Shown in pieces: positions 32,083 through 43,021 of a stretch of 64,000 bases of DNA. This DNA comes from an uncultured Erysipelotrichales bacterium. GTDB taxonomy: Bacteria > Bacillota_I > Bacilli_A > Erysipelotrichales > Coprobacillaceae. A program made the translations under genes and the position numbers. The stretch spans positions 716 through 64,715 of the forward strand of contig CAJTTM010000010.1 of assembly GCA_910579135.1 (NCBI GenBank). The letters are read 5' to 3'. Positions within the stretch are counted from its first letter, which is position 1. Every line of letters starts with the position of its first letter. Below the pieces are notes generated by a model. The model was not told the DNA's origin. It did not search any database and worked only from the letters and a program-made list of their open reading frames with translations.

Positions 32083-35000
32083 TTATTTATAATCAAATTT
32101 CTTGATTGTTATATAAGCTCCTATAGCACATAATACTAATATAGTATATGGCATAATGATAAATGGATCATTTGTCTTGGCACCATCTGCCTTTTTATTG
32201 TTATCTTTTTGATCAACAACTTTTTCATTATCCACTTTTACCTTATCTCCTAATACATCTTTATCAATTTTATCGTTATCTCCAGGTTTTACTGAATCTT
32301 TTATAGCTGATTTTAATAATTCATCTATAACTTTTTGTAAATCTTTTGCATATTGATCAACTTCGCTTTGTTTAGTGAAATCCTTATTAAAATCTATACT
32401 ATTAATAACATCATTTAAATTTTTAACCTTACCTGCATCATATATTGATAAATCACTTGGAACTTTCTTTAATAATTCATTAACCTTTGTATAATTAGCT
32501 AATTTATATTTAAGCTCTTGAATTGCTTTAGAAATAGCCTTTGCATAACCATCTACTTTTTCCTGTTCATCAATCTCTTTATTATATACAACAGCTTGAA
32601 TTGCTTTGTTAAGATTTTGAACTGATTTTTCATCATAGATAGATAAATCATTTGGAACTTTTTCTAACACTTCTCTTATTCTTGTATAATCAGCCCCACC
32701 ATAAACAAGAATTTCATAAATAACAGGATCAACTGCCCTATCAAAAGTCAATTTCACTGCAAGAATAGATGATTGAATATCAAATAACTTCCATGCCCTA
32801 TCTAATGTACCAATATCTTTCCAATTTCCATTTAAATCTTGAACTCCCACCTTTGCATTAGTTATAGATTTTTGATCTTGTAAGATACCAATTTTTAATA
32901 CATCTTTACAAGTTGTCATTGGATAAATCAATTCTTGACCATCTTTTATTTCTAGAATATTTGAATGTGTTGTGATATTTTGATCATCAATAAAATGACT
33001 ATTGTTAATATTGATAGTGCTATTTTTATCAATATATTTTAAATCACTTGCATCAACGGTCTTATTAAATTCAATTTCATAAACCTGTAGCCAATTGCTA
33101 TTCTTTACAGTTGCGACAAATCTTATATATCTTGCAACAGTACCATTCAATGAAGATGTTGCTAAATATTTATCACCTTCAACAACATAATCAGAAACTG
33201 ACATTTTTTCACCAACATCAGACCAAGTTTTTCCATCTTGTGAAATTTGAACTTTCATTTCTTTAAATCCATCAACTTCTCCAACTTTTTTAGGATTAAC
33301 TGCAAACCATATTGAATAGTCATGTACAGAAATAGTTGAACCTAAATCGACTTGTATATAATTTCCTACCTTTGTTGCAGCTCCTGAATAGAATTTTGTA
33401 TCCATATTCCCATCCATAGCTTTATCAATTGCAAATTCAGATTTATATTCTTTCATATCTGTACTTAAAACAGAAGTATTGGCAGAAGTATCTAAAGTTT
33501 GATTATATTTGATTTCATAAACCTTTACAGGATTTTCACTTGATTCACCTGTTACAAAACGAATATATCTTACTAAGTTTCCATCTAATCCAAATGTAGC
33601 GATACTATGATTTCCACTAGTTGTATATTTATCACTTGATAAATAATCACTTGTATCTGTCCATGTTTTTCCATCTAATGATGTTTGAAGTTTCAAGTTC
33701 TTGAAAGCTTCATTTTTATCCAAATAAATACTTGCATCATATAATGGAACTAATGTACCAAAGTCTACACTTATATAATCACCATTTTGTGATACTCTAT
33801 TTGTAGTTAATGATGTATTCATATCATTATCCATGATTTTATCTGTTTTTGTATCAACAGGTATGTTTGTATCTACTTGAAGATGATTACCATAATCTAA
33901 ATAAGTTGCATCATAATCAATTTCATAAATCTTTGTCCATGTATCAGTTGTTCCTGAGGCAACAAAACGGAAATATCTTGCTGTTGCACCCTTTGCATCA
34001 AATACAATTTTCTTCATTGTATCATCTACATCAATATAGTCACTAACACTTTGAGCTTTTCCAACTTTTGTCCAAATCACACCATCTTTAGAAATTTCTA
34101 ATTCTGTAGAAACAAAACCATCAACTTTACCTTTACTGATACCATTGTATAATTCAACTTTATTTAAAGTTGCAAGATTTCCTAAATCAACAGTTATATA
34201 ATTATTATCTTTTGCATAACTATTTGACCAGAAACATGTTGTCATATCACCATCAACGGCGTTATTCAAAACATTTGTCTTATATGTTGATAAATCTGAT
34301 GTCACATTGACAAATAATGGTTGATATCCTTCAGTTATAGATAACTGTTTCATATCCAATTGTGCATTATCTTTTGTACTTACAATTCGTACATATGCGC
34401 CAGTCACAACTTCTTGATTTGTTATATGATTATCATCAACTGATCCAATATCATTCCATGACAAACCATTTAATGAATATTGTAATTTAAATGCATCATT
34501 TTGAGAAATATTGGCATCAATCTTATAAAGATTCATAGCTTTTGGTAAAGCAATAGTAATATAATCATCTTTATTCATTGTTGTTTTAATATTAGAAATT
34601 GAATATGTTGATCCATCTTTCTTTACTTTTTGAATATCTAGATTATCTACATTTGTTATCATTCTTTCATGAATTGTTGGATAATCAATATTTAAATTTA
34701 ATATTTCCCTTATACTATTTATACTCTTTTCTAATAAAGGAGTAATACGATAAGAACCAACAACAATATAAGATTGTCCTTTAATTGTATCAATAATATG
34801 AGAACCACTCTTAGATAATGTATTTTCTAATTCAGATATCTTATCAATTGTTTTTCCTATATCACCTTGTAATGCATATTCATAGCCTTCCATTGCAGCA
34901 ATTCCTGCTTTAGCCATATCTTCATAAGCATCTATATGTTTTTCAACTTCAGATAACAAATTCTGATTTTTAATTTTTCTTAATGCTTGAACATCATTCA

Positions 35001-38000
35001 ACATTTGTTTGAATTTTGCTTTCATATTAGCAATTTCAGTTTTAAAATTATCTCCATATTTTAAGGCATTTTCAAATCTATCAAGATCTTCTTTTAAATA
35101 TTGAGATTCTTCTAATTTAAATCCTGATTTTCTTTCTGGTAAATCAATATAACTAATATTATCTGCAAAACGTTCAAATTCTTCATTGGCTTCTGGAACT
35201 AACTCTTTAATTGAACGTTTCCAACTTGAAACACTATCAAACGCAGAAGTATTCCATGCATAGTCAGCACCACTAAAAACAGTCACTTTTGATGCATCTG
35301 CTTCTGACATAGGATTCAAGAAGAAACTATTAATATTATCAACATCATTATCTAAAATATCTAATGATCCCATCAATAATTTTCCATAACAATAATCTGT
35401 AACAGGATAATTCCACCAAACACCTAAATCTCTATCTACACCTGTTTTCTTTTTTGGTGTTTCAAAATAATCTTTAGTAATCGCAGACATTGTATGTTGC
35501 CCTGTCCACAATACAACTGTGTCAGGATGAATTGTTTTCATAAATGGAGTAAAATATTTTGCCCAATCTCCACCCCAGCTATTATTGTATCGTGATGTTA
35601 CAGTAATAAATGGTTTTACATCTCCATATTTTTCATTTAAATATTTATAAACATCATTAATAAGTTTAGCATGCTTTTCTCCATCAGCAATACTTAAATC
35701 TAAATCATCATAGAAAATACCAAACTGACGAACACCTAAGCTATAAACTTGTTCAAATTTCGCAATTAAAGTTTCATAATCTCCACTACCATTTGTAAAA
35801 TTATAATCTGCACCTGGATGAATTGTCCAACAGAAATCCATATTGTTTTCATGAGCAATTTTAACTAAATCAGAAATATGTTTAGCTTCTTGCGTTGGAT
35901 AGAGTTTTCTCCATTCATCTCTATGATAAATATCATCTTTTGGAGCATAAATATATGTTGTCATCTTATATTTTGATGTATCTTCAAATAAACTTGCTCT
36001 TTCTTCAAATGTCCAAGGGAATCCATAGAATCCTTCAACATATCCTCTAAACTCAACATCAGGATAATCTGAAATAGTAACTTCAGCTAAATGATTATCA
36101 GCTGTCTTTTGTTCAAAGATTTGTAATAATGACATAACTCCATAATATACACCATCTTCATCTGAACCAATGATTGTGATTTGACCACTCTTATGTTCAT
36201 CATTACTTAGATTCATGACATATCCTTGTTTCTTCTCTAAAGCCTTTTGACTATCTTTTACTGAATCACAAATAACACATTCTTTATCACAATCGTTTGC
36301 TAAAATAATTACTGGATTAGTTCCAACTTCATTAACAATCTGATATGTATATCCATTCTTCTCTAATAATTGTTGTACTTTTAGTAAAGTTGCTTGATCT
36401 TGTTCACCATGAACTAGAATATCAACTGTTTTTCCGTTAAGTAGCATACCATTATTAGAATCATAAGTAATATCTTGAACTGTTGGATAAATAGAAACTG
36501 TTGTCTTTGCAGTAATAATATCATTATCAATTGTTAATAATGCATTTCTTAATTCAATAATTGATAAACGAATATCATTATTAAAGCATTCTTTATCTGC
36601 TATCAATTTTTCTGCATTTGAAATCATCTTAGCATATTTTTGATAGTTTTGTCTTAACATTGTTCCTTCAACTGTACCAACTTCAATTTTATCAAGTTTT
36701 GCTTGAACTTCTTTTATTGCTTTTTCTAACTCTACATTTCGTTTTTCATATGCTTCAATTTCATAAATTGAATATCCATAATTTCCTGAAGGTTCTAAAA
36801 GTTCTAATTTAATATATCTTACAGATGTATCTATATCAGTAAATACTCTTTCTCCTTTATTTCCATCAGTAACCTCTTGAATCAAAGTATAATTTTGTCC
36901 ATCTTTTGAACCTAATACATTATATTTTTTAGCATATGAAGATTCAAATGTGACTATTACTCTATCAAGAGAATATTCTTTTTCTAAATCAACAACAACT
37001 GATTCAACTGGATTTTCTTTATATGCAGCACCATTGTATGCATTACCCCAACGTGAATCTAAATCACCATCTGTGATATGAGAATAATCAAATTTATTGT
37101 TTGTATTCTTATATGTTGAAGTTGTTGTTACTTTTTTATCAAGTGCTATATTTGTATAAATTCTTGAATCTGGATTTTTTTCATATACTTCTAATTCATA
37201 TAGTGCATATCCATATTTATACTTATCACTTTTTGGTGCATGGAAAGCTAATCGTACATACTGTGTTTTAACGTTTCCTAATCCATCATATTCTATTCTT
37301 TGTTTATCCTCATATGGTACATTATCTTTAATATCTTTAATATCAAAGAAAGTTTTTCCATCCAATGATCCTTGAATTGTAAAATCTTTAGCATAAGCTT
37401 TTTCCCATGAAATAGCTATCATATCTATTGGATACACTGCCCCTAAATTAACAGTTAAATTTTCTTCTAGATTACCATTACCATTGTTATAACCATTTGT
37501 ATCATTATATTTCACTTGCCATTTATTAGTATCTATCTTTCCATCAACAACATAATTTGCTCCATAACCAGTTTTTGCATAGGTTGAAGAAGCGCTTGTT
37601 TCTTTATTAAGGGCAAGATTTGGATATCTTGCTTCTAAATTATCAATTGCTTTTTGAATATCACTAACTGCTTGATCAATATCATCTTGTGTAGCAGTAG
37701 ATGATAATGACTTCGCTTTTTGTACCTTTTCTTTAACGATATTTAATGTAGCATCAGAATATTTTTCTTCATTGATTTCATCTACTTTTTTATAGATTTC
37801 ATCTAATGCTACTGTATCCTTTGCCTCATATACTTCTAATTCATAAATTGAATAACCATATTGGCTAGCAGGAGTATGCATAGCTAATCTTACATATCTT
37901 GTTTCTACTGCATCCAATTCATGAACTTCAGTTTCACCAGTACCTTTTGTAATATCTTTGATATCAAAGAAAGTTTCTCCATCAAGCGATCCTTGAAGAG

Positions 38001-39546
38001 TATAACTTGTCGCATGTGCTGCTTCCCATGAAATAGACACAGTTCCAATATTGTAAGTATCTCCTAAATCAACCGTTATTGTTTCTTCAGTGTCTCCTTG
38101 ACCTCTATTAAATGGTGCAACATTATATGCATTCCCCCAACGAGTACCCATGTCACCATCAACCGCATGAGCCACTGCAAATGTACTTTTAGCATAAGTA
38201 GATGAAGCAACTACATTCTTCATATATGCTAAATTACTTGTATTATATTCTAAATTCTTAGGAACATAAATTTGGAAAATCTCATTAATTTCATCATCTG
38301 AGACACTTGCTAGTGAAGATGTTGGATTCTTTGAAATATTAAAAGCTCTTTCTGTGAAATTTCCCCACCATGAAACATCAACGACAACTTGATTTGATGA
38401 AACATTCCCTGGTCTTACAGCTGCAGTATTCACTCCTCCATTGATCCATCCTTCTGGTCTATATTGCCATCCATCAGCAATCACAATGACAGAGCCAACT
38501 GGTAAAGTTGCTTTTGTAAATTTTTGTGTGACTACAAAATTTGGAGCAATAGCACTTGTTGTATCCATAGTATAATGTTTATCATTTTTTGCTGATGAAT
38601 TATAGAATCCACCATTTGTTAATGTAAGTGAAGCTCTCTCTAATTCAGAAAGATCTATCTGATATTGAGATTGAGTCACTTCATATGGTTTTGAAAAAGC
38701 ATTTTTTACTGATTCAATAGCCATTGCTTTTTCTTTATCACTCACACCACTTGGTTTATATGATAATTTATCAATATCTAAACCAGTAAAAGCATGTGCA
38801 AAAGTGATTCCTGCAATATATCTTCCTACATCATAAGTTAAATGATAACCATCTCTTGTAAGAGTATCTCCTATAAAAGATGATCTTGCATTTTGAACAG
38901 ATGTTCCTGTAGGAATTACAAAATCAATATCTTTATTTGTATCGATTTTGTTTTGAACAGCCGATACAATCGCATTATACATTGTTTTTTGATCTTTATT
39001 ATAATTTTTAAAATCTGCATGACTAGAATTACCTTGATATGCCCATGTCATATTCCAACCAAATTGAGCATCTGGTTGTAATTCTCTAACAATATCCATT
39101 AGTTCTTGTAAATCATCATAAGTATCAGGTAAACCACTACTTCCACTTGCTTGTTGAAAAGTAATATAATCCCAATCCTCACTTAATACAGCTGTTTTTA
39201 TGCTTGTACTTTTTGTTGTTACCCAACTACCACTATCATTAGTATAGTATGTATAAGCATTAGAATCGCTTTTTGCATTTTCAAGATGAGTTGCTAAAGC
39301 ACATCCACCAATGTATAAATTCCCTAATTTTACATTTTTTACACCTAAATCTTTAGCGATTTCATATAGATATTGTTGACTATCTACTGAAAAACTATTT
39401 CCTATACTTAATACTTTAAGGGTTTGATCTTCATTCCACTTTGAGTCAACTTCATATCCATAAGAGTTTTTAATATGCATTGGTAAAATCCCTATACATA
39501 ATACTAAAACCATTATTATTTTTAGAAATCTTTTACATTTTCTCAT
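32083..39546 (-). CDS. 2487-aa surface protein: SGNH/DUF4886-like esterase domain + several F5/8 type C (CBM32) modules + GH84 beta-N-acetylglucosaminidase + more CBM32 + FIVAR + TM anchor
   Basis: Signal peptide; GNSFSVDS block; repeated ...YGYSIYELEVYE ends of discoidin modules. GH84 core RGYVEGFYGFPWTFEE ... TYIYAPKDD ... FGIFYDDL. Two FIVAR-like repeats. Start set at ATG 39546 after AGGGAGGA; the track used an upstream TTG. Confidence 0.85.
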   Translation of the reverse strand: MRKCKRFLKIIMVLVLCIGILPMHIKNSYGYEVDSKWNEDQTLKVLSIGNSFSVDSQQYLYEIAKDLGVKNVKLGNLYIGGCALATHLENAKSDSNAYTYYTNDSGSWVTTKSTSIKTAVLSEDWDYITFQQASGSSGLPDTYDDLQELMDIVRELQPDAQFGWNMTWAYQGNSSHADFKNYNKDQKTMYNAIVSAVQNKIDTNKDIDFVIPTGTSVQNARSSFIGDTLTRDGYHLTYDVGRYIAGITFAHAFTGLDIDKLSYKPSGVSDKEKAMAIESVKNAFSKPYEVTQSQYQIDLSELERASLTLTNGGFYNSSAKNDKHYTMDTTSAIAPNFVVTQKFTKATLPVGSVIVIADGWQYRPEGWINGGVNTAAVRPGNVSSNQVVVDVSWWGNFTERAFNISKNPTSSLASVSDDEINEIFQIYVPKNLEYNTSNLAYMKNVVASSTYAKSTFAVAHAVDGDMGTRWGNAYNVAPFNRGQGDTEETITVDLGDTYNIGTVSISWEAAHATSYTLQGSLDGETFFDIKDITKGTGETEVHELDAVETRYVRLAMHTPASQYGYSIYELEVYEAKDTVALDEIYKKVDEINEEKYSDATLNIVKEKVQKAKSLSSTATQDDIDQAVSDIQKAIDNLEARYPNLALNKETSASSTYAKTGYGANYVVDGKIDTNKWQVKYNDTNGYNNGNGNLEENLTVNLGAVYPIDMIAISWEKAYAKDFTIQGSLDGKTFFDIKDIKDNVPYEDKQRIEYDGLGNVKTQYVRLAFHAPKSDKYKYGYALYELEVYEKNPDSRIYTNIALDKKVTTTSTYKNTNNKFDYSHITDGDLDSRWGNAYNGAAYKENPVESVVVDLEKEYSLDRVIVTFESSYAKKYNVLGSKDGQNYTLIQEVTDGNKGERVFTDIDTSVRYIKLELLEPSGNYGYSIYEIEAYEKRNVELEKAIKEVQAKLDKIEVGTVEGTMLRQNYQKYAKMISNAEKLIADKECFNNDIRLSIIELRNALLTIDNDIITAKTTVSIYPTVQDITYDSNNGMLLNGKTVDILVHGEQDQATLLKVQQLLEKNGYTYQIVNEVGTNPVIILANDCDKECVICDSVKDSQKALEKKQGYVMNLSNDEHKSGQITIIGSDEDGVYYGVMSLLQIFEQKTADNHLAEVTISDYPDVEFRGYVEGFYGFPWTFEERASLFEDTSKYKMTTYIYAPKDDIYHRDEWRKLYPTQEAKHISDLVKIAHENNMDFCWTIHPGADYNFTNGSGDYETLIAKFEQVYSLGVRQFGIFYDDLDLSIADGEKHAKLINDVYKYLNEKYGDVKPFITVTSRYNNSWGGDWAKYFTPFMKTIHPDTVVLWTGQHTMSAITKDYFETPKKKTGVDRDLGVWWNYPVTDYCYGKLLMGSLDILDNDVDNINSFFLNPMSEADASKVTVFSGADYAWNTSAFDSVSSWKRSIKELVPEANEEFERFADNISYIDLPERKSGFKLEESQYLKEDLDRFENALKYGDNFKTEIANMKAKFKQMLNDVQALRKIKNQNLLSEVEKHIDAYEDMAKAGIAAMEGYEYALQGDIGKTIDKISELENTLSKSGSHIIDTIKGQSYIVVGSYRITPLLEKSINSIREILNLNIDYPTIHERMITNVDNLDIQKVKKDGSTYSISNIKTTMNKDDYITIALPKAMNLYKIDANISQNDAFKLQYSLNGLSWNDIGSVDDNHITNQEVVTGAYVRIVSTKDNAQLDMKQLSITEGYQPLFVNVTSDLSTYKTNVLNNAVDGDMTTCFWSNSYAKDNNYITVDLGNLATLNKVELYNGISKGKVDGFVSTELEISKDGVIWTKVGKAQSVSDYIDVDDTMKKIVFDAKGATARYFRFVASGTTDTWTKIYEIDYDATYLDYGNHLQVDTNIPVDTKTDKIMDNDMNTSLTTNRVSQNGDYISVDFGTLVPLYDASIYLDKNEAFKNLKLQTSLDGKTWTDTSDYLSSDKYTTSGNHSIATFGLDGNLVRYIRFVTGESSENPVKVYEIKYNQTLDTSANTSVLSTDMKEYKSEFAIDKAMDGNMDTKFYSGAATKVGNYIQVDLGSTISVHDYSIWFAVNPKKVGEVDGFKEMKVQISQDGKTWSDVGEKMSVSDYVVEGDKYLATSSLNGTVARYIRFVATVKNSNWLQVYEIEFNKTVDASDLKYIDKNSTININNSHFIDDQNITTHSNILEIKDGQELIYPMTTCKDVLKIGILQDQKSITNAKVGVQDLNGNWKDIGTLDRAWKLFDIQSSILAVKLTFDRAVDPVIYEILVYGGADYTRIREVLEKVPNDLSIYDEKSVQNLNKAIQAVVYNKEIDEQEKVDGYAKAISKAIQELKYKLANYTKVNELLKKVPSDLSIYDAGKVKNLNDVINSIDFNKDFTKQSEVDQYAKDLQKVIDELLKSAIKDSVKPGDNDKIDKDVLGDKVKVDNEKVVDQKDNNKKADGAKTNDPFIIMPYTILVLCAIGAYITIKKFDYK
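35704..35709 (-). other. GH84 catalytic Asp-Asp codons
   Basis: Reverse complement reads GGT ATT TTC TAT GAT GAT TTA (GIFYDDL), in frame (codons 1280-1281). Confidence 0.75.
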
Positions 39547-39693
39547 GCCTTTTCCTCCCTTCAATAAGAAAACTCTGTATTTTTTTATATCCCTCCTTAT
39601 CTTATAAACCCAAAATATATATCATAATATGAATCATTTAATGAATTGTTATAATATCTCACACCCTTTCTTTTTTTTATTTCTGTATTTTAG

Positions 39694-39761
39694 ACAAAAA
39701 AAGGCCAGAAAAATACATCAATGTATTTCTCTGGTCTTGCCTAATTGAATAGTCACAATCC
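39694..39761 (-). promoter_or_regulatory. RAT (ribonucleic antiterminator) overlapping an intrinsic terminator, copy 1
   Basis: Minus strand GGATTGTGACTATTCAATTAGGCAAGACC (39761..39733), compared with the LicT/SacY RAT GGATTGTTACTG..CAGGCAAAACC. Its 3' GACC starts the hairpin GACCAGAGAAATACAT-TG-ATGTATTTTTCTGGCC, followed by T7. Confidence 0.8.
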
Positions 39762-39773
39762 TTGTCTACTAAA

Positions 39774-39802
39774 ATTATACACTTTTTAAAATCTTTTGTC
39801 AA
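39774..39802 (-). promoter_or_regulatory. consensus sigma-A promoter in front of RAT1
   Basis: TTGACA (39802..39797), 17-nt spacer, TATAAT (39779..39774). The RAT begins 12 nt downstream. Confidence 0.75.
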
Positions 39803-39824: not shown

Positions 39825-40658
39825 TTATTTCACATTTATGTTCCTCTTAATATGTATACATAAATATGTCTGTTCATCTGGAGAAAGTTCATAATTATAA
39901 TTTTTCTCAATTAAAGAAACTATTCTATTAATACACATAGACAATCTTGCATCATCTTTTAATAACATTCTTATATCATATGTTGTATCTATAAAGGATA
40001 TCTCTTCATTTCTAAAAATTCTTTCTCCTAAATATTTTAAATGCATAGAAATGCGTGCATATTCTAATGAACTTGTTTCTAATTCTATTTTCATTGTTTT
40101 TTGAATTAAATCAATAACTTCCTTAGTAAAAGTTAATATCTTAGTTGCATTATTCTCTTTATTTGATAAAGAGAAGTTAACAAGATGTAAAGCTATATAA
40201 CCAGCTTCATGTTCATCTAAAAGAATTCTCGTTTTTTTAAATATATATTGAATTGCCCATAATCCTACTTCAAATTCTTTTTTATATAAGACTTTTGTCT
40301 CATCAAGTATAATATTAGGTAAATAAACATGTTCTTTATATCGTTTCATAGCAAACGATATATGATCACTAATTGCAATAAATATCTCACTACTAAAATC
40401 TGTATCTAATTCTTTACTTGCCTTTTTTATAATTTGTTCAGTTATTTCAAAATAAACAACAGGTATATTACGTAAAGATTTTTCTAGTCTTTTTTTATGT
40501 TCATCTTGAAACACATATCTTTTTTCTATTTTACTTTCATCAACCAAATCTCCAGCTTTTTTTCTAAAACCAATGCCTGATCCAGTTAAAATAATATCTT
40601 GTTTATCTTCAGATAATGCAACTACACTATTATTATTAAATATTTTTAATATAATCAT
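39825..40658 (-). CDS. BglG/LicT/SacY-family PRD transcription antiterminator
   Basis: 277 aa. CAT domain MIILKIFNNNSVVAL...GSGIGFRKK followed by two PRDs. Confidence 0.9.
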   Translation of the reverse strand: MIILKIFNNNSVVALSEDKQDIILTGSGIGFRKKAGDLVDESKIEKRYVFQDEHKKRLEKSLRNIPVVYFEITEQIIKKASKELDTDFSSEIFIAISDHISFAMKRYKEHVYLPNIILDETKVLYKKEFEVGLWAIQYIFKKTRILLDEHEAGYIALHLVNFSLSNKENNATKILTFTKEVIDLIQKTMKIELETSSLEYARISMHLKYLGERIFRNEEISFIDTTYDIRMLLKDDARLSMCINRIVSLIEKNYNYELSPDEQTYLCIHIKRNINVK

Positions 40659-40668
40659 AACATTTCAC

Positions 40669-42129
40669 CTACCTAATAATATCATTCATCGCTTCAACTA
40701 TAAAATCAACTTGAGTTCCTATAATAGCTTGCAATCCATTTTTTCCCATCTTTACAATACCACTTACTCCAGTATTAATAATAGCTTGTTCATCAACTAA
40801 TTCTATATCTCTAAGCCTTACTCTTAATCTTGTAATACAACTATCTACTGCTATTATATTACTTTTACCACCTAATGCTTCCACATATAGAATAGCTAAT
40901 TCATCGTAATCTTGACTATCTAATGTTATGCCATTTTCTATATTTGTATCTTCAAATACAAGTTCATCTACTTCTCTTCCTGGTGTCATAAGATTATATC
41001 GAAGAATCATAAACTTAAATAAATAATAATATACAAAAGCAGATATAATTCCTAATGGAATCAACATATATGCATTATGTGAAAAAGGAGCCTTCATACT
41101 TAGGACATAATCAATAAAACCTGCAGAAAAACTAAATCCTGCCAACCATTTCATTGAGGCAGCTATAAAAACAAAGATCCCTGTTAAAATAGCATGCATC
41201 AAATATAATGATGGAGCTACAAACATAAATGCAAATTCTATTGGTTCTGTTACTCCTGTTAAAAAAGAAGCAATTGCACTAGATAATAATATAGCCCCTA
41301 CTTTTTTCTTGTTCTCTGGTCGAGCATATTGATACATAGCAAGTGCTGCAGCCGGTAATCCAAACATCATAACTGGAAAAAATCCAGCTTGATACATTCC
41401 AGTTTGTCCTAATATTCCTCCAGAAATTGATCCCCAGAATTTACCAATATCATTAATATTTGCAACATCAAACCAAAATACAGAATTTAAGGCGTGATGC
41501 AATCCTGTTGGTATTAGTAATCTATTAAAGAAGGCGTAAATACCAGCACCTGTAGCTCCTAATTTCGCAATCATTTCACTAAAAACAACAAATAGATTAT
41601 AAAGTATAGGCCACACTAAAATTAATATAATGGATAATAATAACATTGCGAATGTACACACTATAGGAGAAAAACGTCTCCCATTAAACAATGAAAATGC
41701 ATTAGGAAGTTGAATATTATGATAACGGTCATATATTTTAGCGCTTATTAACCCAACAAGTATTCCTATAAAAGCATTTGGTGTGCTTTCAAAACATTGT
41801 GGAACTTTTGAGATTGATACATTCATCAATAAAGATATTGTATCCTGTGATAATAATCTATTTACTAACAAATAGGATACGATTGTACTCATCATAATCA
41901 TAGAATCTTTTTGTTCTGCCATTCCAATCGCAATGCCCACTGCAAACAATATTGGTAAATTATCTATAATTGCTCCTCCTGATTCAATTAAAAAGGCAGC
42001 AATTATATTATTGGCTCCCCATCCAATTGGATCAATCCAATATCCTACCCCTTTTAATATTGCTGCAATAGGCATAATAGAGACAGGTAACATTAATGAT
42101 TTTCCTAATCGCTGTAAATAATTCAACAT
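40669..42129 (-). CDS. PTS glucose/GlcNAc-family EIICB component
   Basis: EIIC (LQRLGKSLMLPVSIMPIAAIL) plus C-terminal EIIB with the phospho-Cys motif SCITRLRV. Start probably ATG 42129 (9 nt after AAGGGAG); the track gives 42138. Confidence 0.85.
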   Translation of the reverse strand: MLNYLQRLGKSLMLPVSIMPIAAILKGVGYWIDPIGWGANNIIAAFLIESGGAIIDNLPILFAVGIAIGMAEQKDSMIMMSTIVSYLLVNRLLSQDTISLLMNVSISKVPQCFESTPNAFIGILVGLISAKIYDRYHNIQLPNAFSLFNGRRFSPIVCTFAMLLLSIILILVWPILYNLFVVFSEMIAKLGATGAGIYAFFNRLLIPTGLHHALNSVFWFDVANINDIGKFWGSISGGILGQTGMYQAGFFPVMMFGLPAAALAMYQYARPENKKKVGAILLSSAIASFLTGVTEPIEFAFMFVAPSLYLMHAILTGIFVFIAASMKWLAGFSFSAGFIDYVLSMKAPFSHNAYMLIPLGIISAFVYYYLFKFMILRYNLMTPGREVDELVFEDTNIENGITLDSQDYDELAILYVEALGGKSNIIAVDSCITRLRVRLRDIELVDEQAIINTGVSGIVKMGKNGLQAIIGTQVDFIVEAMNDIIR

Positions 42130-42171
42130 ATAACTCATCTCCCTTTTTATCTACAAATAAATATTTGTTTC

Positions 42172-42200
42172 TTGAAAATATAATGCTCACTAAGTATAAT
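42172..42200 (+). promoter_or_regulatory. near-consensus sigma-A promoter of the EIIA gene
   Basis: TTGAAA (42172..42177), 17-nt spacer, TATAAT (42195..42200). The palindrome ACAAATA-AA-TATTTGT (42153..42168) lies just upstream. Confidence 0.65.
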
Positions 42201-42269
42201 AAAATTATGAAACTAGTTTTCTTGAAAAAACATATCATTTATCTTTAATTTTAGAAAGGACAATATTAT

Positions 42270-42752
42270 ATGAAATCCTTACAACAATTGTTTAAAAATA
42301 AAATTAATACTATCTATGCTATTGCAGATGGAAACCTTATTCGTATAGAAAATATCCCTGATACAGCATTTTCTCATCGACTTATTGGTGATGGATTGGC
42401 ATTACAAATTCATTCATCGAACATTTATGCTCCTTGTGATGGTACAATATCTATGATAGCTTCAACAAAGCATGCTTTCATTATTACATTGTCTAATGGT
42501 ACAGAAATTCTTATTCATATAGGACTTTATCATGATAAACCTGTTTCCGAATACTTTCATTACCATGTACAAGTTGGACAACCAGTAACAACAAATAATC
42601 TTATTCTTACATTAGATGATAATTTTTTAAAATCAAATGACTATAAAATTATTGTTCCTATAGTTATTCTTAATTATCAAGAACATCCTATCAAATCATT
42701 AACAACTGTATCATATATTGAACATGGTAAAAAAATAATGACTTGTAAATAA
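42270..42752 (+). CDS. PTS glucose-family EIIA component
   Basis: 160 aa. DTAFSHRLIGDGLAL ... KHAFII ... ILIHIG, with both His of the Crr-type active site. Confidence 0.8.
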   Translation: MKSLQQLFKNKINTIYAIADGNLIRIENIPDTAFSHRLIGDGLALQIHSSNIYAPCDGTISMIASTKHAFIITLSNGTEILIHIGLYHDKPVSEYFHYHVQVGQPVTTNNLILTLDDNFLKSNDYKIIVPIVILNYQEHPIKSLTTVSYIEHGKKIMTCK

Positions 42753-42783
42753 TCATTATTTGAGCTTTTTTTATCATTAGGTG

Positions 42784-42854
42784 AAAAAACAAGCCTCAAA
42801 ATTATTAAAAAAATAAATATTTCGAGGTCTTTCCTAATTCAATAGTCACGATCC
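42784..42854 (-). promoter_or_regulatory. RAT overlapping an intrinsic terminator, copy 2
   Basis: Minus strand GGATCGTGACTATTGAATTAGGAAAGACC (42854..42826), 26/29 identical to RAT1. Hairpin AAGACCTCGAAATATT-N9-AATAATTTTGAGGCTT followed by GTTTTTT. Confidence 0.75.
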
Positions 42855-42862
42855 TTACACAT

Positions 42863-42891
42863 ATAATATATGATTTATCACAACTTTTCAA
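42863..42891 (-). promoter_or_regulatory. sigma-A promoter in front of RAT2
   Basis: TTGAAA (42891..42886), 17-nt spacer, TATTAT (42868..42863). The RAT starts 8 nt downstream. Confidence 0.65.
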
Positions 42892-42978: not shown

Positions 42979-43012
42979 CAAAAAAACGAAGTAAAATCAC
43001 TTTTACTTCGTT
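42979..43012 (-). terminator. rho-independent terminator of rpoBC
   Basis: Minus strand AACGAAGTAAAA-GTGA-TTTTACTTCGTT followed by T7. Confidence 0.85.
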
Positions 43013-43021
43013 TTATTTTAT

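What the first reader, a model, noticed from the sequence alone, without database searches (positions are those of the whole stretch)
42784..42891. Second, 26/29-identical RAT-terminator module with its own promoter, so one antiterminator likely serves two gates
GGATCGTGACTATTGAATTAGGAAAGACC differs from RAT1 at only 3 of 29 positions, and the flanking bases are also alike. It sits 8 nt after a TTGAAA-17-TATTAT promoter and overlaps a 16-bp-arm terminator followed by GUUUUUU. The two gates bracket the EIIA / EIICB / antiterminator block. The locus therefore looks like a small regulon: gate 2 leads to the PTS and regulator genes, and gate 1 leads to GH84. This gives a feed-forward layout in which the regulator must first induce itself.
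Basis: seen in the sequence. Interest (0 to 1): 0.6.

Follow-up and report, generated by a model that had tools for sequence, protein, structure and literature searches.

The report
Second sugar switch aimed through reversed gene
A gut bacterium carries a real second (of three) copy of a known sugar-sensing RNA switch, but this copy can only reach the transporter and regulator genes by reading backwards through an oppositely oriented partner gene; several relatives share this layout, and the switch itself looks weakened.

Summary
A 29-nt BglG/LicT-type RAT lies at 42826-42854 on the minus strand and matches RAT1 at 26 of 29 positions. It sits 8 nt after a TTGAAA-17-TATTAT promoter and overlaps a hairpin plus U6 terminator by 6 nt.

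A covariance-model scan of the whole genome finds three such gates: RAT1 and RAT3 at 52 bits, RAT2 at 43 bits, and the next hit at 22 bits. RAT1 and RAT3 each precede a giant GH84 gene.

The interpretation needs three corrections.
- The EIIA gene (42270-42752) is on the opposite strand. Gate 2 reaches the GlcNAc-type EIICB and antiterminator genes only through a leader of about 0.72 kb that is antisense to EIIA.
- There are three gates, not two.
- The logic is positive autoregulation, a known design (NagY, SacY, BglG), not a new feed-forward circuit.

Seven related loci carry a promoter-like site (9-11 of 12) on the EIICB strand beyond the 3' end of EIIA. In the closest clade this promoter is invariant, while the RAT/terminator is weakened, dead or absent.

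RAT2 is the only one of 18 distinct RATs with two broken canonical pairs, and its terminator is weak.

The parts
42863..42891 (-). Promoter P2: -35 TTGAAA (42891-42886), 17-nt spacer, -10 TATTAT (42868-42863). The predicted start is near 42856.
   Evidence: Consensus scan, 10 of 12. The hexamers, spacing and flanks are invariant in four related loci (G000, G012, L058, L052). The start site is inferred, not measured.
42826..42854 (-). RAT2: a 29-nt ribonucleic antiterminator of the BglG/LicT class. It has non-compensated C5.A24 and G6.A23 in the middle stem.
   Evidence: 42.6 bits against 52.1 for RAT1 and RAT3; covariation; the only outlier at pairs 5-24 and 6-23; canonical fold +2.8 against -1.3 kcal/mol.
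42784..42831 (-). Gate-2 intrinsic terminator: hairpin 42831-42791, G at 42790, U6 at 42789-42784. Its 5' arm overlaps RAT2 by 6 nt. Read on the + strand, the same hairpin lies just after the EIIA stop codon and may also end EIIA transcripts weakly.
   Evidence: Folds (-13.0 kcal/mol). The + strand fold is -9.4 kcal/mol with a poor U tract.
42270..42752 (+). PTS EIIA gene (glucose-family EIIA, 160 aa). It is convergent with gate 2, so transcripts that pass gate 2 are antisense to it.
   Evidence: Pfam PF00358, E = 2.7e-36. Orientation. EIIA is divergent from EIICB in all 10 related loci that carry an adjacent EIICB.
42172..42200 (+). EIIA's own promoter, TTGAAA-17-TATAAT.
   Evidence: 11 of 12. 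Both hexamers are conserved in five loci.
42139..42856 (-). Predicted read-through leader of about 0.72 kb, from the P2 start to EIICB. No terminator-like site on this strand beyond gate 2, no long ORF, G>C.
   Evidence: Its existence as RNA is inferred.
40669..42138 (-). GlcNAc-type PTS EIICB (NagE/NagP-like). The likely true start is ATG 42129, which has better spacing from the GGGAG Shine-Dalgarno sequence.
   Evidence: Pfam EIIC + EIIB. NCBIfam TIGR01998, 578.2 bits against a cut-off of 553.2. Sequence.
39825..40658 (-). BglG/LicT-family antiterminator (CAT + PRD1 + PRD2), the presumed binder of RAT1, RAT2 and RAT3.
   Evidence: Pfam CAT_RBD + PRD. Aligns to LicT structures, and the four regulatory histidines are conserved.
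39705..39802 (-). Gate 1: promoter TTGACA-17-TATAAT (39802-39774), RAT1 (39761-39733) and a terminator (39734-39705 plus a U run), ahead of the 2493-aa GH84 gene (32083-39564).
42983..43014 (.). Bidirectional terminator after rpoC. It insulates P2 from rpoBC transcription and could stop EIIA transcripts that pass the gate-2 hairpin.
   Evidence: I1.

Best explanation
The segment 42784-42891 (minus strand) is a genuine promoter / RAT / intrinsic-terminator gate of the BglG/LicT class. It is one of three such gates in this genome.

Proposed mechanism:
- Without N-acetylglucosamine, RNA polymerase starting at P2 (near 42856) stops at the hairpin plus U6 and releases a leader of about 70 nt.
- When GlcNAc uptake drains phosphate from EIIB, the adjacent LicT-like antiterminator binds RAT2. 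This holds AAGACC out of the terminator stem, and transcription continues.
- The next gene, EIIA, lies on the other strand. The read-through RNA is therefore first a leader of about 0.72 kb antisense to EIIA, and only then the mRNA for the GlcNAc-type EIICB and for the antiterminator itself. That is positive autoregulation.
- The same transcript then meets gate 1 before GH84. Gates 1 and 3 also have their own promoters and control two giant GH84 glycosidase genes.
- Gate 2 is the weak member of the set. It has two unpaired positions in the RAT middle stem and a terminator of -13 kcal/mol. It probably leaks enough to supply the basal sensor and regulator that autoregulation needs.
- Convergent transcription across EIIA probably couples induction of EIICB and the antiterminator to interference with EIIA, in the manner of an excludon.

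Shown: the sequence elements, their rarity, RAT covariation, gene identities and orientations, and conservation of the convergent promoter.
Inferred: the transcription start, binding by this antiterminator, read-through into EIICB, and any effect on EIIA.
For: - RAT2 matches RAT1 at 26 of 29 positions, with 0 chance matches expected.
- The genome-wide covariance-model scan gives three hits (52.1, 52.1 and 42.6 bits) and then a gap to 21.9 bits. Pattern scans agree.
- The canonical RAT fold is supported by covariation at 4 of 5 lower-helix pairs. 97% of cells are paired, and 0 of 500 shuffles reach the observed score.
- The RAT 3' end is part of the terminator 5' arm.
- The antiterminator has CAT + PRD1 + PRD2 and the four LicT histidines. 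EIICB passes the GlcNAc-specific IIBC cut-off.
- RAT1 and RAT3 precede GH84 genes.
- No terminator-like site lies on the minus strand between gate 2 and EIICB.
- All seven related loci with a short EIIA-EIICB spacer carry a promoter-like site on the EIICB strand beyond the 3' end of EIIA. It scores 10-11 of 12 in six of them and 9 of 12 in L050. It is followed by a RAT plus terminator in G000, G012, L055 and L056.
- In the closest clade this promoter is invariant in four of four taxa. No minus-strand promoter is conserved in the spacer, and L052 has none there at all.
- Loci with a long spacer instead have a spacer promoter and no strong convergent one.
- The P2-RAT2-terminator sequence is identical in 10 independent metagenome contigs of this species.
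- Precedent: NagY binds RATs before its own nagY-nagE operon and before hylA.
Against: - There are no expression data.
- RAT2 is the only one of 18 distinct RATs with pairs 5-24 and 6-23 broken, and the only one lacking C23.
- In B. subtilis, a RAT with 2 instead of 3 base pairs between the two loops was inactive (ptsG-R3, PMC1635312).
- Within the same clade the RAT is degenerate in L058 and absent in L052. The gate may therefore be decaying rather than working.
- A promoter-like site, TAAACA-18-TATAAT (42294-42265, 10 of 12), exists just upstream of EIICB in this genome. It is not conserved in relatives.
- The species-level identity reflects very low overall diversity (0-3 SNPs in 884 nt), so it is not evidence of selection.
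- A long untranslated leader facing a near-consensus convergent promoter may rarely reach EIICB.
Confidence: 0.58

Rival explanations
1. Gate 2 is an eroding relic. The convergent promoter still drives EIICB and the antiterminator through the antisense leader. RAT2 no longer binds the antiterminator usefully, and the weak terminator merely attenuates transcription. EIICB and the antiterminator are then expressed more or less constitutively, and only the GH84 gates are truly regulated.
For: RAT2 has two non-compensated mismatches in the three-pair middle stem, and A replaces the otherwise invariant C23. Its canonical fold is +2.8 kcal/mol and its terminator only -13.0 kcal/mol. Sister lineages keep the promoter but have a dead RAT (L058) or no RAT and no terminator (L052). 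A RAT with 2 instead of 3 base pairs between the two loops is inactive in B. subtilis.
Against: RAT2 keeps every invariant loop and upper-stem base except C23 and still scores 42.6 bits, far above background. The U4-A25 pair shown to matter for LicT binding is kept. The 6-nt overlap between RAT and terminator is intact. An alternative register (U4-A27, C5-G26) restores pairing.
Confidence: 0.24
2. RAT2 gates an antisense RNA whose main job is to control EIIA by transcriptional interference or by RNase III cleavage of the duplex. EIICB and the antiterminator are made mostly from a separate promoter in the 131-nt spacer.
For: The read-through RNA covers the whole EIIA gene in antisense. In a sister clade (L048, L049, L053, L054) the RAT of this locus sits in EIIA's own leader, so EIIA is the RAT-controlled gene there. 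A 10-of-12 promoter-like site lies at 42294-42265. G012 has TTGCAA-18-TATTAT in its spacer.
Against: The spacer promoter-like sites are not conserved, and L052 has none. No terminator separates the antisense segment from EIICB, so read-through would enter EIICB anyway. The sign of regulation would be opposite to that in the sister clade.
Confidence: 0.13
3. The hairpin is simply the terminator of EIIA (and a bidirectional one), and the RAT-like 29-mer beside it is a non-functional duplicate with no regulatory role. P2 is a chance AT-rich match.
For: The promoter scan finds as many sites as in shuffled sequence in this AT-rich region (32 found against 30.3 expected). The hairpin lies 39 nt after the EIIA stop codon and folds on the + strand (-9.4 kcal/mol).
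Against: The P2 hexamers and spacing are invariant in four taxa whose surrounding non-coding sequence has diverged. The RAT plus terminator in the same place and orientation recurs in L055 and L056, which are only 54-56% identical in EIIA. On the + strand the hairpin has a poor U tract. L055 has a separate EIIA terminator in addition to the gate.
Confidence: 0.05

Closest known systems
NagY / nagY-nagE / hylA of Enterococcus faecalis (PMC9981650; PMC12502629)
   Same: One BglG/SacY-family antiterminator responds to GlcNAc. One RAT/terminator precedes the operon that encodes the regulator and the GlcNAc PTS permease (autoregulation). A second, about 88% identical, precedes a gene for a large secreted or anchored host-glycan-degrading enzyme. 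The regulon there was also found by a covariance-model scan.
   Different: In E. faecalis the order is RAT-nagY-nagE, all on one strand, and NagE carries its own EIIA domain. The RAT sequence there has low similarity to the classical consensus. Here the order is RAT-[EIIA reversed]-EIICB-antiterminator, the RAT is near-classical, the enzymes are GH84 rather than PL8, and there are three gates. Orthology between this antiterminator and NagY was not tested.
LicT / SacY / SacT RAT-terminator systems of Bacillus subtilis, and bglGFB of E. coli
   Same: A 29-nt RAT with two internal loops. Its 3' end overlaps the terminator. The regulator has CAT-PRD1-PRD2 domains with four histidines. One regulator serves several RATs (LicT: bglPH and licS; SacY: sacXY and sacB). 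In bglGFB, terminators flank the regulator gene.
   Different: In those systems the gate lies directly upstream of, and on the same strand as, the first controlled gene. None is known to me, from memory, to read through an oppositely oriented gene. A 2025 review of RNA-binding antiterminators contains no occurrence of the word 'antisense'.
Excludons (long antisense 5' UTRs spanning a divergently or convergently oriented neighbour, first described in Listeria; PMC4179725, PMC12288877)
   Same: A long leader that is antisense to a neighbouring gene and at the same time is the mRNA of the genes beyond it. The expected consequence is mutually exclusive expression through interference or RNase III.
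   Different: Here the antisense leader would be switched on by a protein-RNA antitermination gate, and the overlapped gene is a subunit of the same transport system. No transcript data exist for this locus, so the excludon behaviour is an inference.

Membership tests
BglG/LicT-class RAT-terminator gate | A sequence of about 29 nt matching the RAT consensus (GGNUUGUNACU...AGGCAAGACC), with invariant loop bases | tested here: met
   26 of 29 identical to RAT1. All columns that are invariant across 18 distinct RATs are kept; the nearly invariant C23 is A in RAT2. The covariance model scores it 42.6 bits, against 21.9 for the best unrelated hit.
BglG/LicT-class RAT-terminator gate | Canonical hairpin: a bottom stem of 2 pairs, a lower loop, a middle stem of 3 pairs, an upper loop, then a top stem | tested here: inconclusive
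   The fold is supported for the class by covariation. RAT2 itself has C5.A24 and G6.A23, so only 1 of 3 middle pairs forms. An alternative register exists.
BglG/LicT-class RAT-terminator gate | The 3' part of the RAT is shared with the 5' arm of an intrinsic terminator, so the two structures are mutually exclusive | tested here: met
   AAGACC (42831-42826) belongs to both. The hairpin is followed by G and U6.
BglG/LicT-class RAT-terminator gate | Located in the 5' leader of a transcript, shortly after a promoter | tested here: inconclusive
   A conserved promoter-like site ends 8 nt upstream.
BglG/LicT-class RAT-terminator gate | Bound by a cognate CAT-PRD antiterminator, with sugar-dependent read-through | not testable with these tools
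   A cognate-type gene (CAT + 2 PRD, four histidines) lies 2.2 kb downstream. Binding and induction need experiments.
BglG/LicT-class RAT-terminator gate | The gate directly precedes, on the same strand, the gene it controls | tested here: not met
   The next gene, EIIA, is on the opposite strand. The first same-strand gene, EIICB, starts about 650 nt after the U tract.
Excludon | A long transcript fully overlapping an oppositely oriented neighbouring gene and continuing into downstream genes | not testable with these tools
   The geometry allows it: there is no terminator between gate 2 and EIICB, and the layout recurs in seven loci. No RNA data are available.
Excludon | Reciprocal (mutually exclusive) expression of the overlapped gene and the downstream operon | not tested
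   Needs strand-specific expression data with and without GlcNAc.

The most novel reading that the evidence does not exclude
An antiterminator-gated excludon. The RAT switch releases a 0.7-kb RNA antisense to the PTS EIIA gene, and this same RNA is the leader of the EIICB-antiterminator mRNA. Induction by GlcNAc would then raise the permease and regulator while lowering their own phosphoryl donor, EIIA. With less EIIA, the antiterminator stays unphosphorylated on PRD1 and the system locks ON, a hysteretic switch for host-glycan foraging. The layout is old (two clades; EIIA only 54-56% identical). It is being remodelled in different ways: the RAT has moved to EIIA's own leader in one clade, and it is decaying or lost in another.
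Probability: 0.3. Interest if true: 0.65.

Novelty: new variant of a known kind. Interest (0 to 1): 0.45.

Why it matters
One antiterminator serving several RAT gates, including its own operon and a secreted glycan-degrading enzyme, is established biology (SacY, LicT, BglG, NagY). On that level this is one more example, in a little-studied group of gut Erysipelotrichales. It adds a defined three-gate GlcNAc/GH84 regulon for host-glycan foraging.

The part that deserves attention is the geometry. The gate for the sensor and regulator genes is separated from them by a reversed gene for the system's own EIIA. This arrangement, rather than the RAT itself, is what relatives conserve. If the antisense leader is real, it joins two regulatory principles, protein-RNA antitermination and excludon-type antisense interference. 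It also gives a natural series (strong gate, weak gate, dead gate, no gate) for studying how autoregulatory loops are tuned or dismantled.

Tried and rejected
- Alternative genetic code. Table 4 was tried because of the 29% GC content. It gives no better gene on the minus strand below gate 2, and rpoB, rpoC and the PTS genes are open under table 11. Rejected.
- Rfam. There is no curated RAT family; only sub-threshold chance hits appeared.
- Inversion scars. No meaningful inverted repeats flank EIIA, only AT-rich noise, so a recent inversion of EIIA is not supported. The divergent EIIA/EIICB orientation is in fact shared by all relatives.
- Genome-contig scan with the EIIA alignment. It returned only one locus (Candidatus Stoquefichus MAG). 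Wider sampling came from the protein database and from contig look-ups.
- Rho-dependent termination of the untranslated leader. rho is present, but the leader has G>C and no C-rich, G-poor stretch, so there is no sign of a rut site. This is weak, inference-only evidence.
- Strain variation in RAT2. Ten contigs are identical in the gate, but overall diversity is too low to be informative.
- Literature search for RAT plus antisense plus EIIA. Nothing relevant was found.

Full report
**What is at the site**

On the minus strand the sequence runs as follows:
- the rpoC stop codon (43022) and a strong terminator (43014-42983);
- a TTGAAA-17-TATTAT promoter-like site (42891-42863);
- 8 nt of spacer;
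- the 29-mer GGATCGTGACTATTGAATTAGGAAAGACC (42854-42826);
- a hairpin (42831-42791) whose 5' arm begins with the last six RAT bases, AAGACC;
- G and then U6 (42789-42784).

The 29-mer has one other match in the window with up to 3 mismatches, RAT1 at 39733-39761. None is expected by chance. Two qualifications apply. The hairpin is largely A-U, at -13.0 kcal/mol against -20.8 for the other two gates. The simple terminator scan did not flag it. Rfam has no RAT family.

**Is it a RAT of a real class?**

I collected 18 distinct RAT sequences of this type from the family and from metagenome contigs. The classical LicT/SacY secondary structure pairs 97% of cells. It shows double-sided changes at 4 of the 5 lower-helix pairs:
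- pair 1-29: GC, GU, AU;
- pair 2-28: GC, AU, UG;
- pair 4-25: UA, AU;
- pair 5-24: UA, CG, UG.

None of 500 shuffles reaches the observed covariation score, and all slid registers score far lower.

A covariance model built from this alignment was run on the whole genome (2.8 Mb, 72 contigs). It gives exactly three strong hits: RAT1 at 52.1 bits, an identical copy on contig C14 at 52.1 bits, and RAT2 at 42.6 bits. The next hit scores 21.9 bits and lies beside a different antiterminator gene on contig C40. Pattern searches with up to 7 substitutions agree.

RAT3 has its own TTGACA-17-TATACT promoter and terminator. It precedes a second GH84 gene (2203 aa) followed by a GH20 gene. The regulon has three gates, not two.

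**The genes**

| Coordinates | Strand | Gene | Evidence |
|---|---|---|---|
| 39825-40658 | - | CAT + 2 PRD antiterminator; the four regulatory histidines of LicT align (DH, LH, MH, IH) | |
| 40669-42138 | - | EIICB; passes NCBIfam's GlcNAc-specific IIBC cut-off (578 against 553 bits) | |
| 32083-39564 | - | 2493-aa DUF4886-GH84 multi-CBM protein | |
| 42270-42752 | + | glucose-family EIIA | |

Gate 2 points at the 3' end of EIIA. EIIA has its own near-consensus promoter (TTGAAA-17-TATAAT, 42172-42200). Anything that passes gate 2 is antisense to EIIA for 483 nt before it reaches EIICB.

The predicted leader is about 718 nt. It has no terminator-like site on that strand, no long ORF, and G>C. 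Table 4 does not rescue a minus-strand gene there.

**Comparative evidence**

EIIA homologues (51-76% identical) were traced to their contigs. In every locus that carries the PTS, EIIA is divergent from EIICB-antiterminator. An EIICB tree gives three well-supported clades.

| Clade | Loci | State of the site beyond the 3' end of EIIA |
|---|---|---|
| C (this genome's clade) | G000, G012 (a Candidatus Stoquefichus MAG), L058, L052 | All four carry the convergent promoter, invariant in both hexamers, the spacing and the flanks (AAAAT.AATTGAAA-N17-TATATTAT) |
| A | L055, L056, L050 | L055 and L056: canonical convergent promoter-RAT-terminator, with C5-G24 compensated in L056. L050: only weak promoter-like sites |
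| B | L048, L049, L053, L054 | The RAT/terminator lies in EIIA's own leader on EIIA's strand. Where the EIICB side is held (L048, L049, L053), the EIIA-EIICB spacer is long (470-530 nt) and holds its own promoter-like site for EIICB; L054 ends just upstream of EIIA |

Downstream of the clade C promoter, the four loci differ:
- G000 has RAT2.
- G012 has a RAT with an altered 3' end and a -12.4 kcal/mol terminator.
- L058 has a RAT whose top-stem 3' strand is destroyed.
- L052 has neither a RAT nor a terminator.

In the short spacers, the only conserved elements are the two hexamers of the EIIA promoter. L052 has no minus-strand promoter-like site there at all.

The simplest reading is that the convergent promoter is the promoter of EIICB-antiterminator. 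On this reading the antisense passage through EIIA is an old, retained feature, and the RAT/terminator is an add-on that is kept, weakened or lost.

**How good is RAT2?**

Two of its three differences from RAT1 fall on the three-pair stem between the two loops and are not compensated (C5.A24, G6.A23). It is the only one of the 18 RATs broken at these pairs, and the only one without C23. The canonical fold costs +2.8 kcal/mol, against -1.3 for RAT1. RNAfold prefers a shifted register, U4-A27 and C5-G26.

In B. subtilis a RAT with two instead of three pairs between the loops was inactive. [quoted passage not shown]

RAT2 is therefore probably a lower-affinity site. Together with its weak terminator, this fits a leaky gate that supplies basal sensor and regulator. 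It fits equally well a gate on its way out, as in L058 and L052. Ten contigs of the same species from independent samples are identical across the gate, but overall diversity is only 0-3 SNPs in 884 nt, so this says little about selection.

**Mechanism proposed**

Shown: the elements, their rarity, the fold of the class, the gene identities and orientations, and conservation of the promoter.

Inferred: P2 starts transcription near 42856. Without GlcNAc the terminator stops it after about 70 nt. With GlcNAc the dephosphorylated antiterminator binds RAT2, and transcription runs antisense across EIIA into EIICB and the antiterminator gene. Only 22 nt after the antiterminator stop codon it reaches gate 1. 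Gate 2 and gate 1 therefore act in series, and P1 and P3 act in parallel.

Convergent transcription with the strong EIIA promoter should cause mutual interference. If it lowers EIIA, EIIB and PRD1 stay unphosphorylated and the loop reinforces itself.

I rate the explanations as follows:
- working, attenuated gate for EIICB-antiterminator: 0.58;
- relic gate: 0.24;
- antisense-only role: 0.13;
- no function: 0.05.

**Comparison with what is known**

The multi-gate autoregulated design is known. In E. faecalis, NagY binds RATs before nagY-nagE and before hylA; the two RATs are 88% identical, with Kd of 4 and 7 nM, and the regulon was found by cmsearch (PMC9981650). From general knowledge, SacY (sacXY, sacB), LicT (bglPH, licS) and bglGFB work the same way.

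The difference here is the reversed EIIA gene between the gate and its operon. This resembles an excludon (PMC4179725, PMC12288877). I found no description of a RAT-gated antisense leader. A 2025 review of RNA-binding antiterminators does not contain the word 'antisense'. I therefore file the RAT itself as a new member of a known kind and the architecture as a new variant.

Another note recorded the reversed EIIA gene. I checked both claims here.

**Limits**

Promoter-like matches are as common as in shuffled sequence in this AT-rich region, so the case for P2 rests on its conservation, not on its score. RAT2 was part of the training set of the covariance model. The comparative set is about a dozen loci, mostly metagenome contigs.

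Noticed in passing
G000 contig C14:58937-58965 (L003; L019 3307-9918 and 3-3197), outside the window: A third gate: an exact copy of the RAT1 29-mer with a TTGACA-17-TATACT promoter and a -20.8 kcal/mol terminator. It lies upstream of a second GH84 gene (2203 aa), which is followed by a GH20 gene with CBM32/discoidin modules.
   Followed up: partly
L048 4931-4959, L049 4926-4954, L053 4926-4953, L054 94-121: In a sister clade the RAT/terminator sits in the leader of EIIA itself, on EIIA's strand. It has a compensatory A4-U25 pair and an altered bottom stem. The same regulator seems to control EIIA positively there, while EIICB has a long spacer with its own promoter.
   Followed up: partly
L052 5650-5690: The promoter of the + strand RAT gate after EIIA has a run of 10 G in its -35/-10 spacer (TTGACA-aaaaccatgggggggggg-TATAAT). 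This could be a slippage-prone tract that varies the spacer length, or a poly-G assembly artefact.
   Followed up: no
G000 contig C40:20882-20901 (L059), and antiterminator genes on C20:8520-8681 and C40:20647-20811: Two further CAT-PRD antiterminators are encoded elsewhere in the genome. A weak hit (21.9 bits) to the RAT model lies just upstream of the C40 gene and is probably a RAT of a different class.
   Followed up: no
window 42983-43014: The rpoC terminator is a near-perfect bidirectional hairpin with U/A runs on both sides. It would also stop EIIA transcripts that pass the gate-2 hairpin.
   Followed up: no
window 42129-42138: The longest EIICB ORF starts at ATG 42138, directly after the GGGAG Shine-Dalgarno sequence. 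The ATG at 42129 has normal spacing and is the start used by gene callers on related contigs (486 aa).
   Followed up: partly
L048 3050-4470: The EIICB gene of this metagenome contig is called as two pieces (406 aa + 66 aa). This suggests a frameshift or an assembly error.
   Followed up: no
L031 (G087:C29:64142-64170) and L035 (G093:C61:13253-13281): Another genus of the family has RATs reading GGATCGTGACTATTGAATTAGGCGAGACC before GH84 genes. They are 27 of 29 identical to RAT2 and share its C5 and G15, but have an intact C5-G24 pair and C23. RAT2 looks like this variant with CG changed to AA at positions 23-24.
   Followed up: partly
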